Shown in pieces: positions 6,387 to 59,644 of a stretch of DNA of 64,000 bases (positions are counted from its first letter, which is position 1; each line of letters opens with the position of its first letter). A model generated the notes under the pieces. It searched no databases, was not told the DNA's origin, and saw only the letters and a program-made list of their open reading frames with translations. This DNA is from Candidatus Vogelbacteria bacterium (GTDB taxonomy: Bacteria; Patescibacteriota; Minisyncoccia; Phycocordibacterales; XYD1-FULL-46-19), in contig CAIPHT010000005.1 in assembly GCA_903864935.1 (NCBI GenBank), positions 9,867 to 73,866 on the forward strand. The letters are read 5' to 3'. Position numbers and translations under genes: made by a program.

Positions 6387-7259
6387 ATGTTAACGCAAAT
6401 CCAAAAAGAATTAAGAAAAGTGGCCGACAAAGACAAGGCAAAAATTTTGGCGCGGTTTTTCAAAACTGGGAAAGGCGAGTATGGTGAGGGTGATAAATTC
6501 TTAGGGGTGGTGGTGCCGGAGCAAAGACGGATTGCAAAAGAATATTTGCGAGACGAGAACGTTGTGAGAAGTCGTTTTTCAAGTGAGCCCGAAATGCGAC
6601 TTCGCACAATGTTCGCTGACCTTCAAAATCTTTTGCGAAGCGAGTATCACGAAGACAGGTTAACCGCCCTTTTGGTTTTAGTGGAGCTGTATCGACTTAC
6701 TCAAAAAAATGACCCTACTTCGCCGAGGCTTCGCAGGGTTAATTCGCGCAAGATTTTTTTGTTTTACATAAAAAATCTTGCGCGAACTTGCCCCGTGAGA
6801 GCGAAGCGATTTTACGGGGTTAACAATTGGGACTTAGTAGATTTAAGTGCCCCTAATATTGTCGGCGATTATCTGTTTACCCTGAGTGAAGTCGAAGGGT
6901 TGAATAATTTTTCTAAAATTCAAATAAAAACATTTTTGCTTAAATTAGCTAAGTCAAAAAATCTTTGGTCGCGTCGGGTGGCGGTGCTTGCCACCTTCCC
7001 CTTTATCAAAAATAAAAAGTTCGAAGAAATTTTAGAGTTGACCAAGTTCTTACTTTTCGAACAAAAAGAAAATCATGACCTAATGCACAAGGCTCTTGGT
7101 TGGGCGCTCCGCGAAGTGGGGAAGAGGGAGTTGGGAGTTTTGAGGAACTTCCTTGATCACTATGCGGGAGTCTTGCCTCGGACCACTCTTCGTTACTCAA
7201 TTGAGAGATTGCCTCAAAAGGAGAGGCTCGAGTATCTAGCTAGGCCCAAAATCGCTTGA
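6387..7259 (+). CDS. DNA alkylation repair protein (AlkD-like HEAT-repeat glycosylase family) carrying in-frame palindromic inserts
   Basis: N-terminus MLTQIQKELRKVADKDKAKILARFFKTGKGEYGEGDKFLGVVVPEQRRIAKEY and later ...NNWDLVD..., ...LWSRRVAVLA... are typical of the DNA_alkylation repair family. Extra segments VRSRFSSEPEMRLRT and DPTSPRLRRVNSRK.../...ARTCPVRAKRFYGV coincide with DNA palindromes. Confidence 0.7.
   Translation: MLTQIQKELRKVADKDKAKILARFFKTGKGEYGEGDKFLGVVVPEQRRIAKEYLRDENVVRSRFSSEPEMRLRTMFADLQNLLRSEYHEDRLTALLVLVELYRLTQKNDPTSPRLRRVNSRKIFLFYIKNLARTCPVRAKRFYGVNNWDLVDLSAPNIVGDYLFTLSEVEGLNNFSKIQIKTFLLKLAKSKNLWSRRVAVLATFPFIKNKKFEEILELTKFLLFEQKENHDLMHKALGWALREVGKRELGVLRNFLDHYAGVLPRTTLRYSIERLPQKERLEYLARPKIA
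6564..6607. repeat. 44-nt palindromic element GTGAGAAGTCGTTTTTCAAGTGAGCCCGAAATGCGACTTCGCAC inserted in-frame in the AlkD-like CDS
   Basis: Nucleotide-identical to 45454-45497 inside comEC. Imperfect hairpin (11-bp outer stem plus inner TTTC/GAAA). Encodes VRSRFSSEPEMRLRT in both hosts. Confidence 0.8.
6716..6820. repeat. composite nested palindrome inside the AlkD-like CDS (17-bp perfect stem TTCGCGCAAGATTTTTT/AAAAAATCTTGCGCGAA plus outer CTTCGC..GCGAAG arms)
   Basis: Read directly from the sequence. It stays in-frame (...NDPTSPRLRRVNSRKIFLFYIKNLARTCPVRAKRFYGV...). Confidence 0.6.
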
Positions 7260-20501: not shown

Positions 20502-20751
20502 AAGCGTGCTGCCGCTCGGTATTTTTACACGGTAATTTTAGACAACGAAAGAGAAATCAAGGTTTTTGCCTTAACTTTAAGGGGATTTGAGATGGTAATT
20601 GATTTCTGGGCCATGACCGGTTAGAGACCAAACGGACTTTAGGTTAATGTTTCTAATAAATTTACAACCAATTTGATTTAATATCGAATGACTTAATGAT
20701 ACCACACCCCTCGTCAGACCTCAAGTCCCAAACTTGCTCAGTAAAACAACA

Positions 20752-20797
20752 CAGAAAACCCCTCCAGCGAGGGGTTTTCTGTGTTGTTTAGGCTAAC
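20752..20797. terminator. intrinsic terminator AACAACACAGAAAACCCCTCCAGCGAGGGGTTTTCTGTGTTGTT (near-identical copy at 53963-54003)
   Basis: Long perfect stem GAAAACCCCTC/GAGGGGTTTTC, downstream of clpP on the minus strand. Confidence 0.65.
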
Positions 20798-20809
20798 AAG
20801 GTTGACGGC

Positions 20810-23617: not shown

Positions 23618-24718
23618 TTACTTTAATCCTTCAAGAAATTCAAAAACTTTTTCGTTTACAATTAGACCGGCGGCGTAGGAGCGAAGGCGGTCTTCGGGGA
23701 CATCTTTATATTGATTCTTGAGATAATCTACTTCGTTCTTTAATTCATCTTCAGGTGCAGTGATTCCTTCTAAGTGGGCGATCTCGTTTAAGATGAGACC
23801 GAAGGCGACACGCTCACGGGCTTGCTTCTCCCAGGAGTCGCGCAATTCCTCACGAGTTTTCTTAAGATGAGTGAGATAATCTTCGAAGTCCATACCCATA
23901 TAGCCAATTTGCCCTTCCATCTCGGCCAGCATCTTGTCTTTCTCGTTCTCGATGAAGACTTTCGCCATCTTGATCTCAGACTTGGCAATCACGCCCTCGA
24001 TAATCCCAACTCGTCTCTTGTCCTTGGCTTTATTAGCCTTCTCGAGAGCCAGATTTTCTTTAATTTTGGCTTTTAGCTCATCAAGAGTCTCAAATTGGCC
24101 GAGACTTTTGGCAAAATCATCATTAAGCTCGATTTCATGTCCCGCTTCCGCAGAATGCTCCGGCGAGGCGAGGTCACATTTCTCGCCCTCTTTGTGCTCG
24201 TGGTGGCTATGCTCGGCGCTCGAACGGCTTTTGCGTAATTCTTCGAGGACGTTGGTAATTTCTTCTTCTTTGACGGCCAAAGGCGAGTCCTCAAGTGAGC
24301 CCGAGGTCTCTCCTTGGGTCGTCACGGTGTTCTTGGCAATCGCTTTATAATCCCCAATTTTTACCTCCGGCATAATAGCGGTATTGATCTTGAAGCCGAG
24401 CGGGTTGCCGGGAGCGAGCTTGGTAATAGTAATCTCGGGGCGGCCAAGCGCCATAATTTTATTGTCGGTAATTATCTGCAAGTACATCTCGGAGATTGCC
24501 TGCTGAGCCATTTCCCAGAGAATTTTTTCTTCACCCAACTTCTCAACAAGAACGTTCTCGGGGATGTGGCCAGGGCGGAAGCCGTCTAACTTAGCATCTT
24601 GGCCCAGAGTTTTGAGGGCTTTCTCTCGATAGGGGGCAAATTCGGTGACGGCTAATTCGCCAGTGATTTCGAGTTCACCTTCTTCAGCCGGATTTATTTT
24701 AAGATCGGTAATTGTCAT
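23618..24718 (-). CDS. tig: trigger factor (short form, 366 aa)
   Basis: N-terminal ribosome-binding domain with the GFRPGHIP signature (cf. GFRKGKVP), followed by a PPIase-like and C-terminal helical region. Near clpP, as in the conserved tig-clpP neighbourhood. Confidence 0.7.
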   Translation of the reverse strand: MTITDLKINPAEEGELEITGELAVTEFAPYREKALKTLGQDAKLDGFRPGHIPENVLVEKLGEEKILWEMAQQAISEMYLQIITDNKIMALGRPEITITKLAPGNPLGFKINTAIMPEVKIGDYKAIAKNTVTTQGETSGSLEDSPLAVKEEEITNVLEELRKSRSSAEHSHHEHKEGEKCDLASPEHSAEAGHEIELNDDFAKSLGQFETLDELKAKIKENLALEKANKAKDKRRVGIIEGVIAKSEIKMAKVFIENEKDKMLAEMEGQIGYMGMDFEDYLTHLKKTREELRDSWEKQARERVAFGLILNEIAHLEGITAPEDELKNEVDYLKNQYKDVPEDRLRSYAAGLIVNEKVFEFLEGLK

Positions 24719-35132: not shown

Positions 35133-35175
35133 CATATATGGTAACATTTTTTACAATTGTAAAAAATGTTACCAA
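35133..35175. promoter_or_regulatory. 36-bp perfect palindrome TGGTAACATTTTTTACAATTGTAAAAAATGTTACCA (copy 1, downstream of the PaaX-like gene)
   Basis: Perfect dyad symmetry. A second copy at 35737-35774 differs by a single centre base. Confidence 0.6.
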
Positions 35176-35194: not shown

Positions 35195-35713
35195 TTAAAC
35201 AATTTCTTTCTCTTTGACCTCAAAAAATTTGAGGTGGGGGAGAAGGTCCATTGTTTTTAGATGCTCAATAAATTCCTTGGGTAGGGGAGCGGGTCCAAGC
35301 CAAACGCTTTTTTGTAGTAGCTTAAATCCGAGCCCAACCAGTTCTACTCTTAGCCAGTAACGACTTCTTTTCTTGTCTTCTGGGATATCGAAAGCAATGA
35401 TAACTTTTTTGTCCGTTTTGTTCCCTTTAATTGGTGTAGTGTGATTTTTGTATAATTTTTGGCTCTTAAATTTTCTTAGCCCTTCAATTGTCAGACTCCA
35501 ATTTTGCCCATTTTCTTTAAGTAGCCCGTTTTCCTTGAGACGATATAGTGTTGATTTTAATACTTTTTCTTGGGCATATTTCGCTCTTCTTTGCGTTGAT
35601 ACTTTTTCCATCTCCTCTTCTATTCGAGGATCTCCCATCATGTGTAACCGCAAATTACGGTAATTACCTGGATGATTAGATAAAAAGAGAAATATTTGGT
35701 CGGTTAGTTTCAT
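35195..35713 (-). CDS. PaaX-like transcriptional regulator (wHTH + PaaX-middle-domain-like), truncated form
   Basis: N-terminal wHTH (...KVLKSTLYRLKENGLLKENGQNWSLTIEGLRKF). Then DKKVIIAFDIPEDKKRSRYWLRVELVGLGFKLLQKSVWLGP, which resembles the PaaX central domain (GKWLLLLSEGLDKS...QLIWQGFGALAPSLMASP). Confidence 0.55.
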   Translation of the reverse strand: MKLTDQIFLFLSNHPGNYRNLRLHMMGDPRIEEEMEKVSTQRRAKYAQEKVLKSTLYRLKENGLLKENGQNWSLTIEGLRKFKSQKLYKNHTTPIKGNKTDKKVIIAFDIPEDKKRSRYWLRVELVGLGFKLLQKSVWLGPAPLPKEFIEHLKTMDLLPHLKFFEVKEKEIV

Positions 35714-35736
35714 TATTATTATCTATTTTAACAAAT

Positions 35737-35774
35737 GGTAACATTTTTTACAATCGTAAAAAATGTTACCAGAA
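35737..35774. promoter_or_regulatory. 36-bp palindrome copy 2 in the divergent intergenic region between the PaaX-like gene and tpiA (putative operator)
   Basis: GGTAACATTTTTTACAATCGTAAAAAATGTTACC, 60 nt upstream of the tpiA ATG. Confidence 0.55.
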
Positions 35775-39236: not shown

Positions 39237-39807
39237 TCTTTAAAATAATTTTTTTAGAATTACAAAGCCGCCAGAGGTCCTAAGACATGGCGGCAAACGG
39301 GGCCCCTCGAGGGGGCAAAAGCAGTGAGCAACGAAATCCAGACGCATGAACTTCGTTGCCTAATCTAAATAAAAATTGAAAGTTAGGGCACTTTCGTGGC
39401 GTCGTCCGTGGGCCTACTACTCCGAGCGATTCGGAGTGCAACTACGCGAGCTCTCGCAGTTGCTACGGCCTTTCTTTATTTATAGAACAGAGAAGATTGC
39501 TGGGGTGGTCTCATCGCTAACTCGCAATTGGGCGAGCGAGGGGTCAGCAAACTTCTTAGAGGAGCATCTAAGTTAAGTATATCATAACCACAAAATTTGT
39601 CAAGGATAAAAATAGAAACCGCCAGGTCTCGCAATGCGGTGGGACCCCAAGGGGGTGGTCGCGTTACGAAAAACTGGCGGCGGTAGCCGGTGGCATCCGG
39701 CCACGCGGGGAGCATTCAGATAGAGCTTGGGCCCCAATGCCCTTCTTTGTGGCATCCCTCTGCCCTTTAGTGTGTCATAACTTCAAAATTCGTCAAGTAT
39801 AAAAACA

Positions 39808-39843
39808 CCGCCCAGGTTTCGGACTCACTTGAGGCCTGGGCGG
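39808..39843. repeat. GC-rich hairpin of the CCGCCCAGG...CCTGGGCGG family (3' of the HIT gene)
   Basis: CCGCCCAGGTTTCGGACTCACTTGAGGCCTGGGCGG. Related copies at 48441-48476, 54947-54986 and 59543-59580. Confidence 0.6.
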
Positions 39844-39859
39844 GGAGAGGAGAAATGGC

Positions 39860-40276
39860 TTAAATTAAAGATTTTTTGATAGCTTCTTGAGTCTCGGCAA
39901 AATCTTCTTTGGTATAGCCACCTTGGCCATGCCAATGGATGAAACCGTCGCCGTCGAAGCGGGGGATGAGGTGTACATGGGAGTGGAAGACGAGTTGGCC
40001 GGCAGCCGGTTCGTTATTCCAACCAATATTTAAGCCATCGGCTTTGGTTCCGTCTTTGATTGCTCTGGCCAGTTTTTGTAAGACTGGGCCTAGTTTGATG
40101 AGAAGTTCTGCGGGTAGGTCGAAGAGGTTGCGGTGGTGTGCCTTAGGTAAGAGCAAGGTGTGGCCAAGATTAACAGGGTTGATATCGAGAACGGCCAGCC
40201 AGTCGTTATCCTCATAAACTTTGTCAGCCGGGATATCGCCGGCGATAATTTTGCAAAAAATACAGTCTGTTTCCAT
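39860..40276 (-). CDS. HIT-family (histidine triad) nucleotide hydrolase
   Basis: GHTLLLPKAHH...HSHVHLIPR: an HxHxHxx histidine triad with the N-terminal CIFCKII motif. Confidence 0.85.
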   Translation of the reverse strand: METDCIFCKIIAGDIPADKVYEDNDWLAVLDINPVNLGHTLLLPKAHHRNLFDLPAELLIKLGPVLQKLARAIKDGTKADGLNIGWNNEPAAGQLVFHSHVHLIPRFDGDGFIHWHGQGGYTKEDFAETQEAIKKSLI

Positions 40277-45093: not shown

Positions 45094-46641
45094 ATGAGCA
45101 TGGCTAATTTGAGAAAAAATTTAGCCCTGCTCATATTTGGTTTTTTGAGCGGTGTCACCTTGGGTGGTCTTATCTCTTGGGCTTTGCCGTGGGTGGGGCT
45201 ATTTTTGGTTCTCGCTCTGGCTTTCTCGGCCCTGTTTCTCAAACTTAAGCGCCAAAAGCTTTTTTTAGCTCTCGCCATAATTTTTGTTGGAGTGATTCTC
45301 GGCCTGATTAGATTTAACTTTAGCCAAAAAACTGACCAAGCTTTGCCCGATTGCTCATCTTCGTCTAGGCCTTGCCTAGCCATGGTTGTCGCTGACCCAG
45401 ACCGGCGAGATGCTTCAACGAGGTTGGTGATTGAGCTTATGGAGTCCGAGTTTGTGAGAAGTCGTTTTTCAAGTGAGCCCGAAATGCGACTTCGCACGAA
45501 CTCGAGAGTTCTAGCTATTATTGACAACTTCACCGACTACTCTTACGGCGACAAAGTGGAGCTCGTTGGTAAAGTAGAAAAGCCTCAGAACTTTTTGACT
45601 GAACAAAACACCGTCTTCGATTATCAAAATTATTTATTAGTCCGCGGCATAGAACAAACAGTTTATCAGCCCAAACTTAAAATCATTTCTCGGGGTAACG
45701 GTTCTACTGTTAAGGCTGGTCTCTATTCTTTAAAAAATAATTTCTTAGGCAATCTTCGTCGTACTTTGCCCGAGCCGGCTGCCTCGTTAGCTGGCGGTCT
45801 CATCTTGGGGGACAAGGGCGGCTTAGGTAAGAAGACTGAAGATGAGTTTAGGCAAGCCGGGGTCTCGCACATTATTGTCCTCTCTGGCTATAACATTACG
45901 ATTGTGGCCGAGAGTGTGCTCTATTTCTTCGCTTGGCTCACACCGGCTTTCTCCTGGCTCCTTTCTATTGGTTCAATCTTTCTTTTTGTCCTGATGACCG
46001 GTGGCGAAGCTGCGGCCGTGCGCTCGGCGGTGATGGGCGCCATCGCGCTCATAGCAAGGCGTTATGGTCGCACCTATGATGCGGGAGTGGCCTTAATTGT
46101 TGCCGGCTTCTTGATGATAGTTTGGAATCCAAGGCTTCTCGCCTTCGACCTCGGCTTTCAACTCTCCTTCCTCGCCACATTGGGTTTGATATATTTGTCA
46201 CCCGTGGTGGAGAAGCTTTTGGATATCGGTTCGGGATTTCTGCGAAGTCGCATCTGGCTACGCGAGAAACGACTTCTCAAAAATCCCGAGCTTTTGAGAA
46301 GTTGGACTTCAAGAGAGCCCGAAGTCCAACTTCGCGGAAGCGGGGAGAAAAAGTTTAACAAGGATGTTTGGTCCGGTCTCAAAGAGCTCATCTGCACCAC
46401 CACCGGCGCCCAACTCGCCGTCTACCCTTGGCTCCTCTATAAAATGGGCAACGCTTCGCTCGTTGGTTTCATCTCCAACATCTTCATTCTCCCACCTATT
46501 CCCATTGCCATGTTCTTAAGTTTCTTAACGGGTATTACTGGTTTTATTTCCTCCTTCCTATCTCTTCTCATCAGTTATCCTACTTATTTCCTCCTCGCTT
46601 ATATCCTCAAAATGGCTCATATCTTTGCGAGTTTGTTATAA
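45094..46641 (+). CDS. comEC: ComEC/Rec2 competence protein, membrane channel part (DUF4131 + Competence domain), with in-frame palindromic inserts
   Basis: Multi-TM with IIVLSGYNITIVAES (competence domain signature). Contains the 44-nt palindrome at 45454-45497 and a related one at 46297-46335. Confidence 0.8.
   Translation: MSMANLRKNLALLIFGFLSGVTLGGLISWALPWVGLFLVLALAFSALFLKLKRQKLFLALAIIFVGVILGLIRFNFSQKTDQALPDCSSSSRPCLAMVVADPDRRDASTRLVIELMESEFVRSRFSSEPEMRLRTNSRVLAIIDNFTDYSYGDKVELVGKVEKPQNFLTEQNTVFDYQNYLLVRGIEQTVYQPKLKIISRGNGSTVKAGLYSLKNNFLGNLRRTLPEPAASLAGGLILGDKGGLGKKTEDEFRQAGVSHIIVLSGYNITIVAESVLYFFAWLTPAFSWLLSIGSIFLFVLMTGGEAAAVRSAVMGAIALIARRYGRTYDAGVALIVAGFLMIVWNPRLLAFDLGFQLSFLATLGLIYLSPVVEKLLDIGSGFLRSRIWLREKRLLKNPELLRSWTSREPEVQLRGSGEKKFNKDVWSGLKELICTTTGAQLAVYPWLLYKMGNASLVGFISNIFILPPIPIAMFLSFLTGITGFISSFLSLLISYPTYFLLAYILKMAHIFASLL
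45454..45497. repeat. 44-nt palindromic element, identical to 6564-6607, in-frame inside comEC
   Basis: Exact 44/44 nt identity. Encodes VRSRFSSEPEMRLRT in the same frame as in the AlkD-like gene. Flanks form extra complementary arms (CGAGTT / AACTCG). Confidence 0.8.
46297..46335. repeat. diverged member of the same palindromic element family inside comEC (GAGAAGTTGGACTTCAAGAGAGCCCGAAGTCCAACTTCGC)
   Basis: Shares the GAGAAGT...TTCAAG.GAGCCCGAA...ACTTCGC framework, with a compensatory inner stem TGGACTTC/GAAGTCCA. Confidence 0.6.
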
Positions 46642-48425: not shown

Positions 48426-48440
48426 AAATTCACCTAAAAA

Positions 48441-48476
48441 CCCGCCAGGCCTCGGGCTCACTTGAGGCCTGGCGGG
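48441..48476. repeat. GC-rich hairpin of the CCGCCAGG...CCTGGCGG family (terminator for the S2P gene)
   Basis: CCCGCCAGGCCTCGGGCTCACTTGAGGCCTGGCGGG. Confidence 0.6.
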
Positions 48477-48499
48477 GGAGAAAGGGGGAGTTTTTGCCC

Positions 48500-48528
48500 T
48501 TGACAGAAATAACCTGTTATGCTATACT
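48500..48528 (+). promoter_or_regulatory. extended -10 sigma70 promoter TTGACA-N17(..TGC)-TATACT
   Basis: TTGACA 48500-48505, TATACT 48523-48528 preceded by TGC. An RBS AAGGAG and the ATG at 48601 follow. Confidence 0.6.
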
Positions 48529-48600
48529 AGACGTTAGGTAAGGTAATATTTGGTGTTCTCTACAAAAGGCCTTTTGGCCAGAAAATAAGGAGATAGAGTC

Positions 48601-48888
48601 ATGAGCCGAGAGGAGCAATTTGCTCAGATTTTGGAACGTGTGTGTGGTCGCAACATCGGTTGCCTTGTCTGCTATGCGGGTAGCCACGGAAACTGGTTGG
48701 TGGAACTCCAAGACGCGCTTGAAGACATGGGCGTGTCGGTAGAGGAGTTCGCCTCGACCCGCAGCGACCAAGCAGGAATTTTGTTCACTGTCACTCGGGG
48801 CCGCCTCAGGTTGCTTCACCCCGGCCAGTGCGTCGACTCCAAGGCGATCATGAGCATTTTTCTCCGGCTCGAGAAGGCAGAGGATTAG
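48601..48888 (+). CDS. small hypothetical protein (95 aa), GC-richer, inserted just upstream of rpsL
   Basis: Own promoter, RBS and terminator (48896-48936). No domain recognised. Confidence 0.45.
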   Translation: MSREEQFAQILERVCGRNIGCLVCYAGSHGNWLVELQDALEDMGVSVEEFASTRSDQAGILFTVTRGRLRLLHPGQCVDSKAIMSIFLRLEKAED

Positions 48889-49015
48889 GCTCAAACACCG
48901 CCCACAACGGAAAACCGTTGGAGGGCGGTTTTCTTTTTGCCCAAACAGTTGCATTTTCTAAGCATTTATATTAAAGTAGTGCTTACCTGGCCGAGAGGTC
49001 ATTTTTATTGTATTT

Positions 49016-53941: not shown

Positions 53942-53962
53942 AGTCGCTCGACTTACTTCAGT

Positions 53963-54003
53963 TAAACAACACAGAAAACCCCTCCAGCGAGGGGTTTTCT
54001 TAC
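53963..54003. terminator. intrinsic terminator, near-identical copy of 20752-20797
   Basis: AAACAACACAGAAAACCCCTCCAGCGAGGGGTTTTC. Confidence 0.6.
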
Positions 54004-54412
54004 GCTCCGCATCGGCCATTTTGCCATTGTTCTCGCTTTGCTCGAACATAAATGATGGCAAAAACCGGCTGGCCGTAGCTACGCGAGGTTGTTTAACTGA
54101 AGAAGTCTCGCTTAACTGCAAACCGCCACTGAGAGGCGAAGCCTCTCAGTGGCGGTTTGCTAGAAACTCGAAACCCTACCAATCGGTAGGGTTTCTCGGA
54201 GGCCGGAGCCACTAATACATAAATTGTAATACTGGGCATTTGAAAGTCAAATCAAAAAAAAGGCCCCCGATGCAGACGTGTCTGCATAAGGGTCCTCTCC
54301 GTAGTGATGTGTATATTATACCCCCGGGTATTAAAAAGTCAAGAAATGGAAAACCCGCCGGCGGCAAGCGGGAAATCCGTTTGCGCGCGCGGCGGGTGTG
54401 TGGGCAGTGAAC

Positions 54413-54829
54413 TTAGCTGAGGTCGACGCCAGCCTCTTTCATGGCTTTGGCGAGGGCCTTTTCGACGAGGGTGGGAAGTTTTTTCTTGAACTCTTCGACC
54501 AGGGCCAGGGCTCTTGCCGGAAGGTCTTCAAGGTGAGATCTCTTCAACTCGTCACCGTCCCTTCTGTGCTTCAGTGAAATCTTGCTCATCTCGGCGCAGA
54601 GGATTTTGACCTGCTCCAATTCCTGGAGGTCCTCTTTCGGGATGTCCTTGCTGAGAAAATGGTATTTCGAGGCCATGTCTCTGCCGGCATCTTCCACTGT
54701 GTGCACCAAACGCCAGTCGTCTTTCCCTTCCCAGTTGGTGAGTCTCTTGAGGGGGTTACCGAAGTGTTCTGTTGAGCGTGTTGGTTGGCTTCGGTATTCT
54801 TCAACTAAACGCCTGAAGTTTATCATCAA
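54413..54829 (-). CDS. hypothetical protein (138 aa), GC-richer, inserted between rpsJ and rplC on the opposite strand
   Basis: Own consensus promoter (54902-54930, minus), RBS AAGGAGAA, and several downstream terminator hairpins (54120-54400). Confidence 0.5.
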   Translation of the reverse strand: MMINFRRLVEEYRSQPTRSTEHFGNPLKRLTNWEGKDDWRLVHTVEDAGRDMASKYHFLSKDIPKEDLQELEQVKILCAEMSKISLKHRRDGDELKRSHLEDLPARALALVEEFKKKLPTLVEKALAKAMKEAGVDLS

Positions 54830-54901
54830 CTTTCTCCTTCTTCTTTCTGACCTTATCTCAAAAGCACCCTACTTGTTCGGGCACCTTACTCTCTATAATT
54901 A

Positions 54902-54930
54902 AGTATAGCACAATAGGTTCTATATGTCAA
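54902..54930 (-). promoter_or_regulatory. extended -10 sigma70 promoter TTGACA-N17(..TGC)-TATACT on the minus strand
   Basis: Reverse complement reads TTGACAtatagaacctattgtgcTATACT; drives the 54413-54829 gene. Confidence 0.6.
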
Positions 54931-54946
54931 TGGCTCTACATTCAGA

Positions 54947-54986
54947 CCCCGCCCAGGTCTCGGGCGACCTTGAGGCCTGGGCGGGG
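54947..54986. repeat. GC-rich hairpin CCCCGCCCAGGTCTCGGGCGACCTTGAGGCCTGGGCGGGG between divergent promoters
   Basis: Same family as 39808, 48441 and 59543. Confidence 0.6.
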
Positions 54987-55003
54987 GAAAGGAGGGGTAA
55001 ATA

Positions 55004-55032
55004 TTGACTTTAAATGACATTCTGGTAGTATA
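55004..55032 (+). promoter_or_regulatory. putative promoter TTGACT-N16-TAGTAT for the rplC-rplB segment
   Basis: Hexamers read by eye; weaker than the others. Confidence 0.35.
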
Positions 55033-57645: not shown

Positions 57646-57750
57646 TTTTTCTTTTCCCTCATGTCCCTCAATGCTATTATTAACCTAGGCCTAAAGTGCC
57701 TAACGTGTTTTTATTATAAATTTATTAGTAACCAATTTTTTATTAAACAA

Positions 57751-59511
57751 ATGAAAAAGTATCTTTTTGGAGCCCTCTTGGCCTTAGCGCTAGTTGTTGC
57801 TCCTTTTGTGTCTAGTGCGGCAACTACCCCTGTGGCAAATCAAGGCAAGCCAGTTGTTAAGTTGGCCACCGGGTCAGTATCTCTAAAAGATGGGCGGGTT
57901 GAAGCCGTTTTTAATGGTTACGTTTCCTCTTCTGGCGGGGAGGCCTACATTGATAAGAACAATCCCTTTAACGTTCGCCTGATTAATTATTCGGGAAAGG
58001 GCCTAAATAATAATAGTTGTAAAGTTGTGTCATATGATTATGATAAAAATTTGTCTAGCGTAAAGGGTAAATGGGGGCAATTAATTACAGTTTTGAAAAA
58101 TGGCACAAATGCTCGATATAGAGTTGTGGTTAGTTGCGACACTAATGGGTTATTAGCTGGAGTTTACTATGCAGAATTATCCTATTTATATTATTGGCCA
58201 ACTATCATGAGTCAATATGGGGCTCATCTAAATATCAATAATAAGTCAAATGATTATGTTTATGTGTCTGGTGATAAATCATCCCCTTGGATTTCCAATG
58301 TAAATAATCCTGTTGAGAACGGAGGCAAAGTTGCTCTAAGTGGTTTCAATTTGGGTAATATTAACGCTGTCTATGTCGATGGTCTTCCGGTTTCCACTGA
58401 ACATAACACCTCTGACCCTAACAATCTTTCGTTTAATTTGGCAGAAGACCTTACTGTTGGTCATCATGAATTTCAAGTGGCCAACGTTAATGGGCGAAGT
58501 AATTTAGGCGACTTAATTATTAAACCCCGTGTTATTATTGTAAGCCTTCTCTTTGCTCCATCGACCTTTATCCCTACCAGTCAGACCCTTAAGGGGGGAG
58601 ACTCAAAGTCGATTATTGCGATTGATCTCAGCGTCTACAGGTCAAAGCTGGCTGTTAGCCGTTTAGATGTTCATTTTACCGAGCGCCCATGGCTTAACTT
58701 CAGTGAAGTTAGCTTAAGAGATATCAATGGTACGATTATTGCTCGCAAAACCTTATCAGGACCTAATGACGCGACAGAAGTCTCGGCTGGTTCTGAGTAT
58801 TTTGTTCGTTTTGATAACATTGATTATCCCGTTATTCCTGGTAACAAGTCTACTCTCGTTGCTTGGGCCAATGTCCGCCCTATTGCTAAGTTTACGGCTG
58901 GAGAGAAGGTTGGAGTTAGTATTCCTGCTGGTTCCGTCCAGTATTTTAGTGGCCTAAGCACGACGACTGTTGGCTTGGGTTCTGCTTTTCGGATTGGCGG
59001 GGCCTATGTCAATACTTTAACCATGCTTGATACGGTCTCCTCTCCGGTTATTACTCCAACCCCTGCACCAGTCACTCCAGTTACTACCGGTTCGGTTGTT
59101 ACTCCAACCCCAGTTTCAACTCCAGCCCCTACTACCGTTACGGCTGAAGTTTCCCCTCGCGTCTCGGCTATTGCCGGTAACCTTTACCCAGGTGGGTGGG
59201 TTAAGTTGAGTGGGGCTCGCTTAACGACGGACGTCAAAATTGTAGATAATTATGACCCTAGTAAGATTGTGGTGCCACTGAGCCTCTCCGATGTTAATGG
59301 TGACGGGACACGCATTGATTTCAAGTTGCCTTCGGATATGAAGATCGGGGCCTATTACCTTAATGTTTACAGCAAGACGGGCATGAAGAGCCCAACCATG
59401 CCTTTCCCAGTCACTGCCAAACCTGTCACTTCGGCTCAAGCTAAGGTTAACCAGCTCGCGGCCACGGCCAGTGCCCTACAGGCTATTCTTGATAAAATGA
59501 TGGGGCAGTAG
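57751..59511 (+). CDS. secreted surface protein (signal peptide, Ig/IPT-like beta domains, Pro/Thr-rich linker) inserted between rplB and rpsS
   Basis: MKKYLFGALLALALVVAPFVSSAA signal, PTPAPVTPVTTGSVVTPTPVSTPAPTT linker, and 586 aa of beta-rich sequence. The ATG at 57751 is preferred over the upstream extension. Confidence 0.6.
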   Translation: MKKYLFGALLALALVVAPFVSSAATTPVANQGKPVVKLATGSVSLKDGRVEAVFNGYVSSSGGEAYIDKNNPFNVRLINYSGKGLNNNSCKVVSYDYDKNLSSVKGKWGQLITVLKNGTNARYRVVVSCDTNGLLAGVYYAELSYLYYWPTIMSQYGAHLNINNKSNDYVYVSGDKSSPWISNVNNPVENGGKVALSGFNLGNINAVYVDGLPVSTEHNTSDPNNLSFNLAEDLTVGHHEFQVANVNGRSNLGDLIIKPRVIIVSLLFAPSTFIPTSQTLKGGDSKSIIAIDLSVYRSKLAVSRLDVHFTERPWLNFSEVSLRDINGTIIARKTLSGPNDATEVSAGSEYFVRFDNIDYPVIPGNKSTLVAWANVRPIAKFTAGEKVGVSIPAGSVQYFSGLSTTTVGLGSAFRIGGAYVNTLTMLDTVSSPVITPTPAPVTPVTTGSVVTPTPVSTPAPTTVTAEVSPRVSAIAGNLYPGGWVKLSGARLTTDVKIVDNYDPSKIVVPLSLSDVNGDGTRIDFKLPSDMKIGAYYLNVYSKTGMKSPTMPFPVTAKPVTSAQAKVNQLAATASALQAILDKMMGQ

Positions 59512-59542
59512 AGTATTGAGATTGTCCTGAAATTAAGAAAAC

Positions 59543-59580
59543 CGCCCAGACCTCTAGTTTCCCGAGGTCTGGGCGGTTTT
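59543..59580 (+). terminator. intrinsic terminator of the CCGCCCAG hairpin family (CCGCCCAGACCTC...GAGGTCTGGGCGG + TTTT)
   Basis: 13-bp stem plus a T-tract after the surface-protein gene. Confidence 0.65.
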
Positions 59581-59616
59581 TGCTTGCCCCGTGGGGGTGA
59601 AGTCCCTCTACGGGGT

Positions 59617-59644
59617 TTGACATTATCCCCAATTTTGCTATGCT
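59617..59644 (+). promoter_or_regulatory. promoter TTGACA-N16(..TGC)-TATGCT re-starting transcription for rpsS...rplE, followed by a leader hairpin GTCCGCC-gact-GGCGGAC
   Basis: Hexamers at 59617-59622 and 59639-59644, with about 100 nt of structured leader before the rpsS ATG. Confidence 0.5.

What the first reader, a model, noticed from the sequence alone, without database searches (positions are those of the whole stretch)
48441..48535. Family of GC-rich CCGCCCAGG...CCTGGGCGG hairpins, twice coupled to near-identical consensus extended -10 promoters (cassette-like)
Hairpins at 39808, 48441, 54947 and 59543 share the outer stem CCGCC(C)AGG/CCTGG(G)CGG and, in three copies, the inner loop region CTCGG.C.ACTTGAGG. 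The copies at 48441 and 54947 are followed by a purine-rich stretch and then TTGACA-N17-tgcTATACT promoters that drive GC-richer small genes inserted into the ribosomal cluster (48601-48888 on the plus strand; 54413-54829 on the minus strand). The copy at 59543 is followed within about 40 nt by TTGACA-N16-tgcTATGCT. The dinJ promoter shares the TTGACA...TATACT form. The repeated hairpin-plus-strong-promoter arrangement next to acquired genes suggests a portable terminator/promoter module or an insertion hot spot, rather than independently evolved signals.
Basis: seen in the sequence. Interest (0 to 1): 0.55.

Follow-up and report, generated by a model that had tools for sequence, protein, structure and literature searches.

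The report
Dispersed palindromic repeat elements, not promoter cassettes
The GC-rich hairpins are real copies of one short palindromic repeat family that is scattered through this candidate-phyla-radiation (Paceibacterota) genome, including in-frame copies inside protein genes, and their closeness to strong promoters is a by-product of sitting at operon boundaries rather than a portable terminator-promoter module.

Summary
The hairpins at 39808, 48441 and 54947 are true repeats (about 50 nt, nhmmer E about 1e-16). The hairpin at 59543 is a diverged sibling. They are one sub-family of a larger family with a conserved 10-nt loop, GGGCTCACTT, closed by YTC/GAR, and arms that differ between sub-families and covary strongly.

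The window holds nine copies. Five lie in frame inside intact genes: AlkD, trigger factor and ComEC (three copies). This resembles Rickettsia palindromic elements. Related Paceibacterota/Vogelbacteria contigs carry copies at the same coding sites, sometimes inverted, and at other intergenic sites.

A close relative (L019) lacks both the hairpins and the small genes at M50|S12 and S10|L3, yet keeps the L3 promoter. The S19 promoter is also conserved in L019. Those promoters are therefore ancestral and not part of the repeat.

The two near-identical TTGACA-N17-tgcTATACT promoters are real. They lie on opposite sides of their hairpins, and their similarity continues into the 5'UTRs of two unrelated accessory genes.

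No transposase gene is in the window, so how the elements spread is unknown. Locally they probably act as strong hairpin terminators or insulators.

This is a new variant of a known kind of element, apparently undescribed in this bacterial group.

The parts
48430..48487 (+). Sub-family A copy, the finding itself. Hairpin 48441-48476, loop GGGCTCACTT, purine tail GGAGAAAGGGGGAG 48477-48490. It sits 16 nt after the stop of the M50 peptidase gene.
   Evidence: 63.8 bits; RNA -41.6 kcal/mol on +, -31.8 on -. The site is empty in L019 and L018.
39797..39854 (+). Sub-family A copy. Hairpin 39808-39843, loop GGACTCACTT, three G.T pairs that form only on the + strand, tail GGAGAGGAGAAATGG. It lies just past the 3' end of the HIT gene (39860-40276, minus strand). 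On the minus strand it is followed by a T-run.
   Evidence: (56.4 bits)
54938..54995 (+). Sub-family A copy. Hairpin 54947-54986, loop GGGCGACCTT, tail GAAAGGAGGGG. It lies between the divergent promoters of the 137-aa gene (leftward) and rplC (rightward).
   Evidence: (54.5 bits). The site is empty in L019 and L035.
59531..59587 (-). Diverged A-like copy. Hairpin 59542-59576, loop GGGAAACTA read on the minus strand, flanked by an A-run and a T-run, so it is a bidirectional terminator after the 616-aa gene. The ortholog in L019 (14338-14376) has the loop in the opposite orientation.
   Evidence: I11; 29.5 bits. The same stem with the canonical loop occurs in L033 18684-18741.
6557..6614 (-). 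Sub-family B copy, in frame inside the AlkD (DNA alkylation repair) gene 6387-7259(+). It encodes NVVRSRFSSEPEMRLRTMF.
   Evidence: (62.2 bits). The insert is absent from distant AlkD homologs. In the AlphaFold model, the first half of the insert (aa 57-67) is coil and the 10-residue block 61-70 averages pLDDT 59; from aa 68 it runs into a helix.
24269..24326 (-). Copy with its own arms, in frame inside the trigger factor gene 23618-24718(-). It encodes GETSGSLEDSP. The same site in L001, L032 and L033 carries the element inverted (GETSSEPEVSP). The closest homolog, P0242/L038, lacks it.
   Evidence: (53.5 bits)
45447..45504 (-). Sub-family B copy, in frame in ComEC 45094-46641(+), around aa 118-136 (EFVRSRFSSEPEMRLRTNS). 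Copies at the same site in L019 and L035 have swapped arms or are inverted.
   Evidence: (65.3 bits)
46233..46286 (+). Copy with B arms and a second loop type (CATC-TGGCTACGCG-AGAAA), in frame in ComEC (GFLRSRIWLREKRLLKN).
   Evidence: (19.2 bits). The same variant occurs in L035 1262-1316 and in AlkD of L032, L033 and L034.
46287..46344 (-). Sub-family C copy (arms GAAGTTGGACTTC / GAAGTCCAACTTC, loop GGGCTCTCTT), in frame in ComEC (ELLRSWTSREPEVQLRGSG). The same arms occur in the S7|EF-G spacer of L017, L018 and L019.
   Evidence: I9; 65.5 bits
48500..48528 (+). Promoter-like site TTGACA-N17-(tgc)TATACT driving the 95-aa accessory gene. It is not part of the repeat.
54902..54930 (-). Twin promoter-like site TTGACA-N17-(tgc)TATACT driving the 137-aa accessory gene. 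It is 24/29 identical to 48500-48528 and the similarity extends through the 5'UTR.
   Evidence: (score 83 against 44 +/- 5 for shuffles)
55004..55031 (+). rplC promoter-like site TTGACT-N16-(tg)GTAGTAT. It is ancestral: conserved in L019 and L035, which lack the hairpin.
59617..59644 (+). rpsS (S19) promoter-like site TTGACA-N16-(tgc)TATGCT. A counterpart, TTGACA-N16-TATGAT, lies 27 nt after the orthologous hairpin in L019.
48601..48888 (+). 95-aa accessory gene (GC 0.566, no family match). It is absent from L019, and other genes occupy this junction in L018 and L021.
54413..54826 (-). 137-aa accessory gene (GC 0.519, no family match; the ATG start is at 54826). It is absent from L019, and other genes occupy this junction in L017, L018, L021 and L035.

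Best explanation
The hairpins are intergenic copies of a dispersed family of short (about 40-60 bp), non-autonomous palindromic repeat elements. The family belongs to a Paceibacterota (CPR) lineage related to Candidatus Vogelbacteria.

Anatomy (shown). The family has a 10-nt loop GGGCTCACTT closed by YTC/GAR. At least four arm types keep complementarity while their sequence changes. Copies occur between genes and also, in frame and without stop codons, inside genes, much like Rickettsia palindromic elements. Between relatives, copies are gained, lost, inverted in place and recombined (the same arms with different loops, the same loop with swapped arms).

Local effect (inferred). Intergenic copies settle where insertions are tolerated. 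Those places are operon boundaries, and they are also where accessory gene cassettes land and where promoters sit, so hairpin and promoter end up as neighbours without being one unit. Once present, an intergenic copy gives a very stable RNA hairpin (-28 to -42 kcal/mol). It most likely works as a terminator, read-through barrier or 3'-end stabiliser. The 59543 copy can do this in both directions. The 39808 and 48441 copies have a T-run only for minus-strand transcripts.

Spread (inferred, weakest step). The element probably acts as a single-strand hairpin whose loop is the recognition feature for a factor supplied in trans, for example a RAYT-like HUH/Y1 enzyme. Alternatively it spreads by template switching or gene conversion between copies.
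For: Repeat status:
- Three A copies score nhmmer E about 1e-16.
- The 14-mer TCGGGCTCACTTGA occurs four times exactly, and GGCTCACTTG is the top non-AT 10-mer of the window.

Structure:
- On 16 distinct copies, 77% of cells pair against 56% in shuffles.
- 21 of 24 pairs show double changes.
- Covariation is 0.60 against 0.23, with 0 of 500 shuffles reaching it and slid controls at most 0.23.

Census with covariance model R1:
- The window holds 7 strong copies plus 2 weaker ones.
- Copies occur in L001, L002, L003, L017, L018, L019, L032, L033, L034 and L035. L021 has none.

Coding copies:
- All 18 examined are in frame and lack stop codons, in four host genes.
- ComEC of the window and of L019 align with near-complete identity apart from gaps at the elements.
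- The AlkD insert is present in close homologs and absent from distant ones. Its first half sits in a low-confidence coil between helices.
- In trigger factor, about 19 of the top 50 homologs carry the element in sense, antisense or decayed form. The closest homolog (83% identity) lacks it.

Mobility and turnover:
- L019 and L035 have empty sites at M50|S12 and S10|L3.
- Copies lie at other places in relatives: upstream of nusA in L001, after rplB in L017, in the tig 5'UTR in L032 and L033.

Promoters:
- Promoters are independent of the repeat.
- Only 7 of 14 intergenic copies have an outward strong promoter-like site within 45 nt, and it can be on either side.

Strand asymmetry:
- The loop-sense strand folds 8-10 kcal/mol better because of G.U pairs.
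Against: - No transposase, no clear target-site duplication and no defined termini were found. Mobility is inferred only from presence/absence and inversion between relatives.
- Only about 350 kb of related sequence was sampled. Exact-pattern scans of 185,579 species genomes and of JGI metagenomes found sub-family A in only two other genomes. Copy number per genome and taxonomic range are therefore extrapolations.
- The loop is more conserved than the arms and survives at orthologous coding sites across deep divergence, whatever its orientation. This points to a selected function and not to pure selfishness.
- At the trigger factor site the element replaces a linker of similar length and is not cleanly added.
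- On the + strand the three A copies lack an adjacent U-tract, so their terminator activity is not assured.
- No expression data exist.
Confidence: 0.75

Rival explanations
1. Portable terminator-plus-promoter cassette. In this reading the hairpin and a strong extended -10 promoter move together as one module, as promoter-bearing Correia elements do, and drive newly acquired genes.
For: - Two A copies lie 16-22 nt from near-identical TTGACA-N17-tgcTATACT promoters.
- L002, L003 and L001 also have a strong promoter-like site 12-16 nt from the hairpin.
- The adjacent genes are lineage-specific.
Against: - The twin promoters lie on opposite sides of the oriented hairpin.
- Repeat similarity stops before the -35.
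- Promoters next to L001, L002 and L003 have unrelated spacers.
- The rplC promoter exists without a hairpin in L019 and L035.
- Cassettes in L018 and L021 have no such hairpin.
- 7 of 14 intergenic copies have no nearby promoter, and every coding copy lacks one.
Confidence: 0.05
2. A selected cis-acting nucleic-acid signal rather than selfish DNA. In this reading the hairpin with the GGGCTCACTT loop is a binding or processing site for a host protein, kept by selection wherever it lies. Candidates include a nucleoid, recombination or replication factor, a DNA-uptake or self-recognition tag in these ComEC-dependent bacteria, or an RNase or RNA-binding protein site.
For: - The loop is nearly invariant: 9 invariant and 2 near-invariant columns among 16 copies whose arms differ.
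- It is kept at orthologous sites in tig, ComEC and AlkD across relatives with only 55-70% protein identity. It is kept in either orientation, although inversion changes the encoded peptide from SGSLE to SSEPE. The constraint is therefore on the nucleic acid and not on the protein.
- The loop-sense strand folds better.
Against: - Density is low (about 1 per 7 kb) compared with known uptake sequences.
- Some orthologous copies have swapped to other loops, TGGCTACGCG and GGTTACAC.
- Many close relatives lack the element at the tig site without any obvious replacement.
- There is no orientation bias relative to genes or to GC skew.
- No candidate binding protein was identified.
- Concerted evolution among copies could also keep the loop uniform.
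Confidence: 0.17
3. Ordinary, independently evolved intrinsic terminators, or a structured small RNA or leader, that merely look alike because GC-rich stems converge.
For: - They sit at gene ends, and 59543 is a textbook bidirectional terminator.
- Strong predicted folding.
Against: - Identity extends through loop and tail.
- The same loop with different arms occurs inside ORFs.
- The + strand of the three A copies has no adjacent U-tract.
- There is no Rfam match, even at E up to 10 around 48441 or E up to 1 around 39808 and 54947.
- The elements are absent from the orthologous spacers in L019 and L035, so they are not a conserved leader.
Confidence: 0.03

Closest known systems
Rickettsia palindromic elements (RPE)
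   Same: Both are hairpin-forming repeats without a transposase. Both are inserted in frame into unrelated housekeeping genes without destroying them, as well as between genes. Both are patchy between related genomes and sit in tolerated protein loops. RPE facts are from review PMC10969869; the features here are.
   Different: These elements are about three times shorter (40-60 bp against about 100-150 bp). There is no sequence relation and the host phylum is different (CPR). This family is defined by a conserved loop with interchangeable arms, and copies invert in place. Neither is a described RPE feature, to my knowledge.
REP / BIME elements with RAYT (REP-associated tyrosine transposase)
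   Same: Both are short GC-rich imperfect palindromes at operon ends that can terminate or stabilise transcripts. A single-strand hairpin is the likely active form. A related genome (L021) has a Y1_Tnp gene that matches the RAYT model only below its cut-off (43 bits against 80), flanked on both sides by one identical hairpin.
   Different: REPs are extragenic by definition, whereas half of these copies are intragenic. No conserved flanking tetranucleotide was seen. There is no Y1 gene in the window. The L021 hairpin (GGGGGAGGTTGAGCCTCCCCC) belongs to another family, and L021 lacks the GGGCTCACTT family.
Correia / CREE elements of Neisseria (promoter-bearing MITEs)
   Different: Here the promoters lie outside the repeated unit and are either ancestral (rplC, rpsS) or belong to the accessory-gene cassette. 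These elements are also much shorter than Correia (about 100-200 bp).
[quoted passage not shown]
   Same: Both are repeated hairpins that look like intrinsic terminators and sit at gene ends. SPRITE is listed in PMC10969869. The 59543 copy, L033 11717 and L017 8008 have T-runs.
   Different: The three A copies of the window have a purine-rich tail instead of a U-tract on the + strand. The family also has coding copies.
Hairpin-forming repeats and coding palindromes of organelle genomes (sponge RHE, PMC2800124; Nematomorpha coding palindromes, PMC6649704; yeast mitochondrial GC clusters and chloroplast hairpin-loop 'minute inversions', from my own knowledge)
   Same: Both are short palindromes that invade small, compact genomes, including coding regions. 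In both, the loop flips between the inverted-repeat arms.
   Different: Those systems are organellar and unrelated in sequence. The comparison rests only on titles and abstracts and on memory, and was not tested.

Membership tests
Rickettsia palindromic elements (RPE-like in-frame palindromic repeats) | Repeated element able to fold as a stable hairpin | tested here: met
   Covariation is 0.60 against 0.23. DNA fold z-scores range from -3.6 to -5.5.
Rickettsia palindromic elements (RPE-like in-frame palindromic repeats) | Copies inserted in frame in unrelated protein genes, leaving the ORF intact | tested here: met
   All 18 coding copies examined, in AlkD, tig, ComEC and UPF0102, are in frame and lack stop codons.
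Rickettsia palindromic elements (RPE-like in-frame palindromic repeats) | Sequence homology to an RPE family and a length of about 100-150 bp | tested here: not met
   Length here is 40-60 bp. The host is a CPR bacterium. No RPE consensus was available for alignment, so only the length criterion was truly tested.
REP / RAYT system | Short imperfect palindromes confined to extragenic space | tested here: not met
   5 of the 9 window copies are intragenic.
REP / RAYT system | Cognate RAYT (Y1 HUH transposase) gene flanked by the same hairpins | tested here: inconclusive
   There is no Y1_Tnp gene in the 64-kb window (tblastn). The rest of the genome was not available. A gene in L021 that matches the RAYT model only weakly (43 bits, cut-off 80) is flanked by a different hairpin.
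MITE (miniature inverted-repeat transposable element) | Terminal inverted repeats plus target-site duplication and a related autonomous IS | tested here: inconclusive
   The arms act as inverted repeats. No convincing duplication was found: filled and empty sites at M50|S12, S10|L3 and tig show no clean duplication. No IS was found.
Intrinsic (rho-independent) terminator | GC-rich stem-loop immediately followed by a U-tract on the transcribed strand | tested here: inconclusive
   The feature is met for 59543 on both strands, and for 39808 and 48441 on the minus strand only. It is not met on the + strand of the three A copies, where the U-run of 48441 starts 14 nt after the stem.
Any curated RNA family (Rfam 15) | Match to a covariance model at the gathering score | tested here: not met
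   Searches returned only tRNAs and chance-level hits.

The most novel reading that the evidence does not exclude
The hairpin is not merely selfish DNA. It would be a functional single-strand signal of this CPR lineage. Its 10-nt loop is kept by selection at the nucleic-acid level, even inside genes and in either orientation. It would be read by a dedicated enzyme, such as a domesticated HUH/RAYT-like nuclease or a competence or recombination factor. That enzyme would also drive in-place inversion and the spread of the hairpin, turning protein linkers of housekeeping genes (ComEC, trigger factor, AlkD) into switchable segments.
Probability: 0.17. Interest if true: 0.8.

Novelty: new variant of a known kind. 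Interest (0 to 1): 0.55.

Why it matters
CPR/Patescibacteria genomes are tiny and streamlined, and they are usually described as poor in repeats and mobile DNA.

- A palindromic repeat family that reaches about one copy per 7 kb would be a previously unrecorded force shaping both their proteins and their operon boundaries. It writes itself in frame into core genes (the DNA-uptake channel ComEC, trigger factor, a DNA repair glycosylase), flips orientation at fixed sites and marks variable junctions inside the ribosomal protein cluster.
- It gives a practical marker for strain-level variation in metagenomes.
- It is a caution for gene callers and protein-family alignments, because lineage-specific 19-aa inserts are DNA-driven and not functional.
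- It is a tractable case for asking how hairpin repeats spread without a linked transposase.

For the original question, the result shows that the neat hairpin-plus-promoter picture is coincidental co-location and not a module.

Tried and rejected
1. Rfam search at the gathering threshold on the whole window, and in permissive mode around 48441, 39808 and 54947. It found only tRNAs and chance hits.

2. Exact-pattern scan for sub-family A (CCAGGNNTCGGNCNNNCTTGAGGCCTGG).
- The genome collection gave 3 loci in 2 MAGs.
- The metagenome collection gave the same two contigs again.

3. Viral contigs scanned with YTCGGGCTCACTTGAR. This gave nine bare 16-mers without stems, which are chance matches. 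There is no phage link.

4. Search for a transposase.
- tblastn of the L021 Y1_Tnp protein against the window and the loci held at that point (L001-L022) found nothing.
- The L021 gene matches the RAYT model only below its cut-off (43 bits against 80) and is flanked by another hairpin family.

5. The TTTTTGCCC direct repeat flanking the 95-aa cassette (48491-48499 and 48934-48942) was considered as a target-site duplication. It was rejected as weak evidence because the 9-mer occurs five times in the window.

6. A conserved TTGCAT...TATTAA upstream of rpsL was first read as an N17 promoter. Recounting gives a 14-nt spacer, so it is reported only as conserved spacer sequence.

7. The two accessory proteins were compared with each other and with Pfam, PHROGs and NCBIfam. 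They are unrelated and match no family.

8. The 9-mer CCGCCCAGG alone is not enriched.

9. Extending the window through its L5 protein returned only short contigs.

10. Simple inversion cannot explain the arm swap between the window and L019 at ComEC site 1. That relation is left undescribed mechanistically.
Full report
**Observation**

Three of them are unmistakable copies of one sequence of about 50-60 nt, all in the + orientation:
- 39797-39854
- 48430-48487
- 54938-54995

Each has a 13-15 bp GC-rich stem, a 10-nt loop (GGGCTCACTT or a near variant) and a purine-rich tail (GGAGARRGRG). A profile built from them finds each at E about 1e-16 and nothing comparable elsewhere on that criterion.

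The stems contain a CG-to-GC compensatory swap and T.G pairs that form only on the + strand.

The fourth hairpin (59542-59576) shares the stem (12/13, with a compensatory change). It has another loop and an A-run/T-run frame.

The window has many other, unrelated terminator hairpins.

The promoter-like sites are as described, with one correction.
- The TTGACA-N17-tgcTATACT site near 54947 is on the other side of the hairpin and fires leftwards (54930-54902).
- What follows the purine tail there is TTGACT-N16-TAGTAT, the rplC promoter (55004-55031).

**Organism and neighbourhood**

The genes are typical of a CPR bacterium. The str/S10 ribosomal cluster runs from 49016 onwards, with RecJ, HIT, ComEC and an M50 peptidase nearby.

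The closest public relatives are MAGs named Candidatus Paceibacterota and Candidatus Vogelbacteria.

**The hairpins belong to a bigger family**

A k-mer count showed that GGCTCACTTG is the most frequent non-AT-rich 10-mer of the window (6 occurrences). TCGGGCTCACTTGA occurs four times exactly.

Listing all near matches revealed further hairpins that share the same loop and closing pairs (YTC-GGGCTCACTT-GAR) but have quite different arms:
- Sub-family A: CCGCCCAGGYCTC / GAGGCCTGGGCGG.
- Sub-family B: GTGMGAAGTCGCATTTC / GAAAAACGACTTCTCAC.
- Sub-family C: GAAGTTGGACTTC / GAAGTCCAACTTC.
- A private arm pair in the trigger factor gene.

Sixteen distinct copies from the window and five relatives align without gaps.
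- 77% of stem cells pair, against 56% in shuffles.
- 21 of 24 pairs show changes on both sides.
- The covariation score is 0.60 against 0.23. No shuffle of 500 reached it, and all slid controls were at or below 0.23.

A covariance model finds seven strong copies in the window (53-65 bits). It also finds 59531-59587 (29.5 bits, minus strand) and a variant at 46233-46286.

That the 59543 hairpin is a true member is shown by L033 18684-18741. That copy has exactly its stem (CCGCCCAGACCTC / GAGGTCTGGGCGG) with the canonical loop.

**Half of the copies are inside genes, in frame**

The intragenic copies in the window are:
- 6557-6614, in an AlkD-type DNA glycosylase gene.
- 24269-24326, in trigger factor.
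- 45447-45504, 46233-46286 and 46287-46344, in ComEC.

All 18 coding copies examined in the window and relatives keep the frame and have no stop codon. They are read either as ..SGSLE.. (loop sense) or as ..SSEPE.. (loop antisense).

ComEC of the window and of L019 are nearly identical throughout the alignment. The only gaps, and most of the mismatches, lie at the elements.

In AlkD the 19-aa segment VRSRFSSEPEMRLRT and its variants are present in the closer homologs. They are absent from typical 235-250-aa AlkD proteins. An AlphaFold model (pLDDT 81) places the first half of the segment in a low-confidence coil between helices.

In trigger factor, about 19 of the 50 most similar homologs carry the element in sense, antisense or decayed form. 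The others, including the closest (83% identity), have an ordinary acidic linker. DNA of that homolog shows no palindrome at the site.

This is the behaviour described for Rickettsia palindromic elements (review PMC10969869).

**Turnover and inversion**

At orthologous sites the element is found in opposite orientations:
- Trigger factor: the window has GETSGSLEDSP; L001, L032 and L033 have GETSSEPEVSP.
- ComEC site 1: L019 against L035.
- The hairpin before rpsS: the window loop TAGTTTCCC against L019 GGGAAACCA.

Arms and loops also occur in different combinations.
- B arms occur with a second loop, TGGCTACGCG, in five loci.
- A third loop occurs in L035.
- At ComEC site 1 the arms are swapped around the same loop between the window and L019.

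Sub-family A copies lie at different places in different genomes:
- Upstream of nusA in L001.
- After rplB in L017.
- Immediately before the tig start codon in L032 and L033.
- Between unrelated genes in L002 and L003.

L021 has none in 20 kb.

**Test of the terminator-promoter module**

Relatives give empty sites. In L019 (L3 88% identical), M50 is followed after 80 nt by rpsL, and rpsJ after 94 nt by rplC. There is no hairpin of this family and neither small gene.

The rplC promoter TTGACw-N16-TAGTATAAA is nevertheless present in L019, and in the more distant L035. It predates the hairpin.

The rpsS promoter downstream of 59543 has a counterpart in L019.

Other relatives have different accessory genes at the same junctions, without this hairpin.

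Among 14 intergenic copies, seven have an outward strong promoter-like site within 45 nt, and it can be on either side. Seven have none.

The repeat similarity ends before any -35.

The junctions are therefore hot spots for both cassettes and hairpins, but the hairpin and the promoter are not one unit.

The two promoters 48500-48528 and 54930-54902 are a unique pair in the window. They are 24/29 identical, and their similarity continues through the 5'UTR to the ribosome-binding site (alignment score 83 against 44 +/- 5 for shuffles).

They drive two unrelated proteins with no family match. They were found only in contigs of this same species.

A promoter-plus-leader segment has evidently been duplicated between two accessory genes, independently of the hairpin.

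**Likely function and mechanism**

Shown:
- The family exists.
- Its structure is conserved by covariation.
- It has intragenic in-frame copies.
- Its presence, absence and orientation differ between relatives.

Inferred:
- The elements are non-autonomous. No transposase gene is in the window.
- They persist where insertions are tolerated, namely protein linkers and operon boundaries.
- In transcripts the A copies form hairpins of -28 to -42 kcal/mol on the + strand. That is 8-10 kcal/mol more stable than on the minus strand.
- They should therefore block read-through or protect 3' ends. A canonical U-tract is present only for 59543 (both strands) and for the minus strand of 39808 and 48441.

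How the elements spread is open. The better folding of the loop-sense strand and the invariant loop suggest a single-strand hairpin recognised through its loop.

A Y1/HUH gene that matches the RAYT model only weakly (43 bits, below the 80-bit cut-off), flanked by its own hairpins, exists in a related genome. It belongs to another hairpin family, so it is only a precedent.

Template switching or gene conversion between copies is the alternative.

The strong conservation of the loop at orthologous coding sites, regardless of orientation, is not explained by pure selfishness. It keeps open a functional reading, treated here as a rival with about 0.17 confidence.

**Novelty**

Full-text searches found no description of palindromic or REP-like repeats in CPR/Patescibacteria. 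The 2024 MITE review does not list the group.

The kind of element is known (REP, RPE, terminator-like repeats). The variant is new in three respects: it is very short, it is defined by its loop with interchangeable arms, and it flips in place within a CPR genome.

**Verdict**

- Observation: essentially right.
- Module interpretation: wrong.
- Insertion-hot-spot idea: right, but not caused by the hairpin.
- The underlying phenomenon is moderately interesting (0.55).

Noticed in passing
window 6690-6820 (inside AlkD gene 6387-7259): AlkD carries two further lineage-specific in-frame inserts, DPTSPRLRRVNSR and ARTCPVRAKRFYG. DNA 6731-6759 and 6770-6798 form a 29-nt inverted repeat. Its left arm is conserved coding sequence (SRKIFLFY) and its right arm is the insert, so this looks like an inverted duplication created inside a gene. 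Relatives have other small inserts at other AlkD positions.
   Followed up: partly
window 39237-39796: A 560-nt stretch with no convincing ORF, GC 0.50 and visibly structured. It contains a lone A-type arm, CCGCCAGGTCTCG at 39621, that can pair with CTGGCGG at 39676. There was no Rfam or ARAGORN hit. It may be an unrecognised ncRNA.
   Followed up: partly
window 53942-54412: The spacer between rpsJ and the 137-aa gene has no ORF of note. It has several strong hairpins, including a perfect 20-bp stem at 54118-54160. There was no Rfam match.
   Followed up: partly
window 20729-20804 and 53960-54000: A second repeated hairpin family, AAACAACACAGAAAACCCCTC ... GAGGGGTTTTCT, occurs at two unrelated places.
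   Followed up: no
window 35139-35174 and 35736-35771: Two near-identical perfect palindromes, TGGTAACATTTTTTAC / GTAAAAAATGTTACCA, flank the ORF 35195-35713 (minus strand). They look like operator sites or another repeat.
   Followed up: no
window 48500-48600 and 54830-54930: Two unrelated accessory genes (95 aa and 137 aa) share a duplicated promoter plus 5'UTR, TTGACA-N17-tgcTATACT ... GTAAGGT ... CAGAAA..AAGGAGA. The pair was found only in this species.
   Followed up: yes
L021 4749-5510: A Y1_Tnp gene (Pfam hit passes; RAYT model match only 43 bits against an 80-bit cut-off) sits between EF-G and EF-Tu in a related genome. It is flanked on both sides by the hairpin GGGGGAGGTTGAGCCTCCCCC, the classic arrangement of a RAYT with its REPs.
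   Followed up: partly
L033 18684-18741; L032 18924-18981: In two relatives an A-like hairpin ends only 10-13 nt before the trigger factor start codon, where a ribosome-binding site would be expected.
   Followed up: no
window 57661-59511 and relatives (L017, L019, L021, L035 between rplB and rpsS): Every relative has one to three large, poorly conserved genes wedged between rplB and rpsS inside the S10 operon. Some carry PG_binding_1, Kre9_KNH or PKD hits. In the window this is a 616-aa protein with no family match.
   Followed up: no
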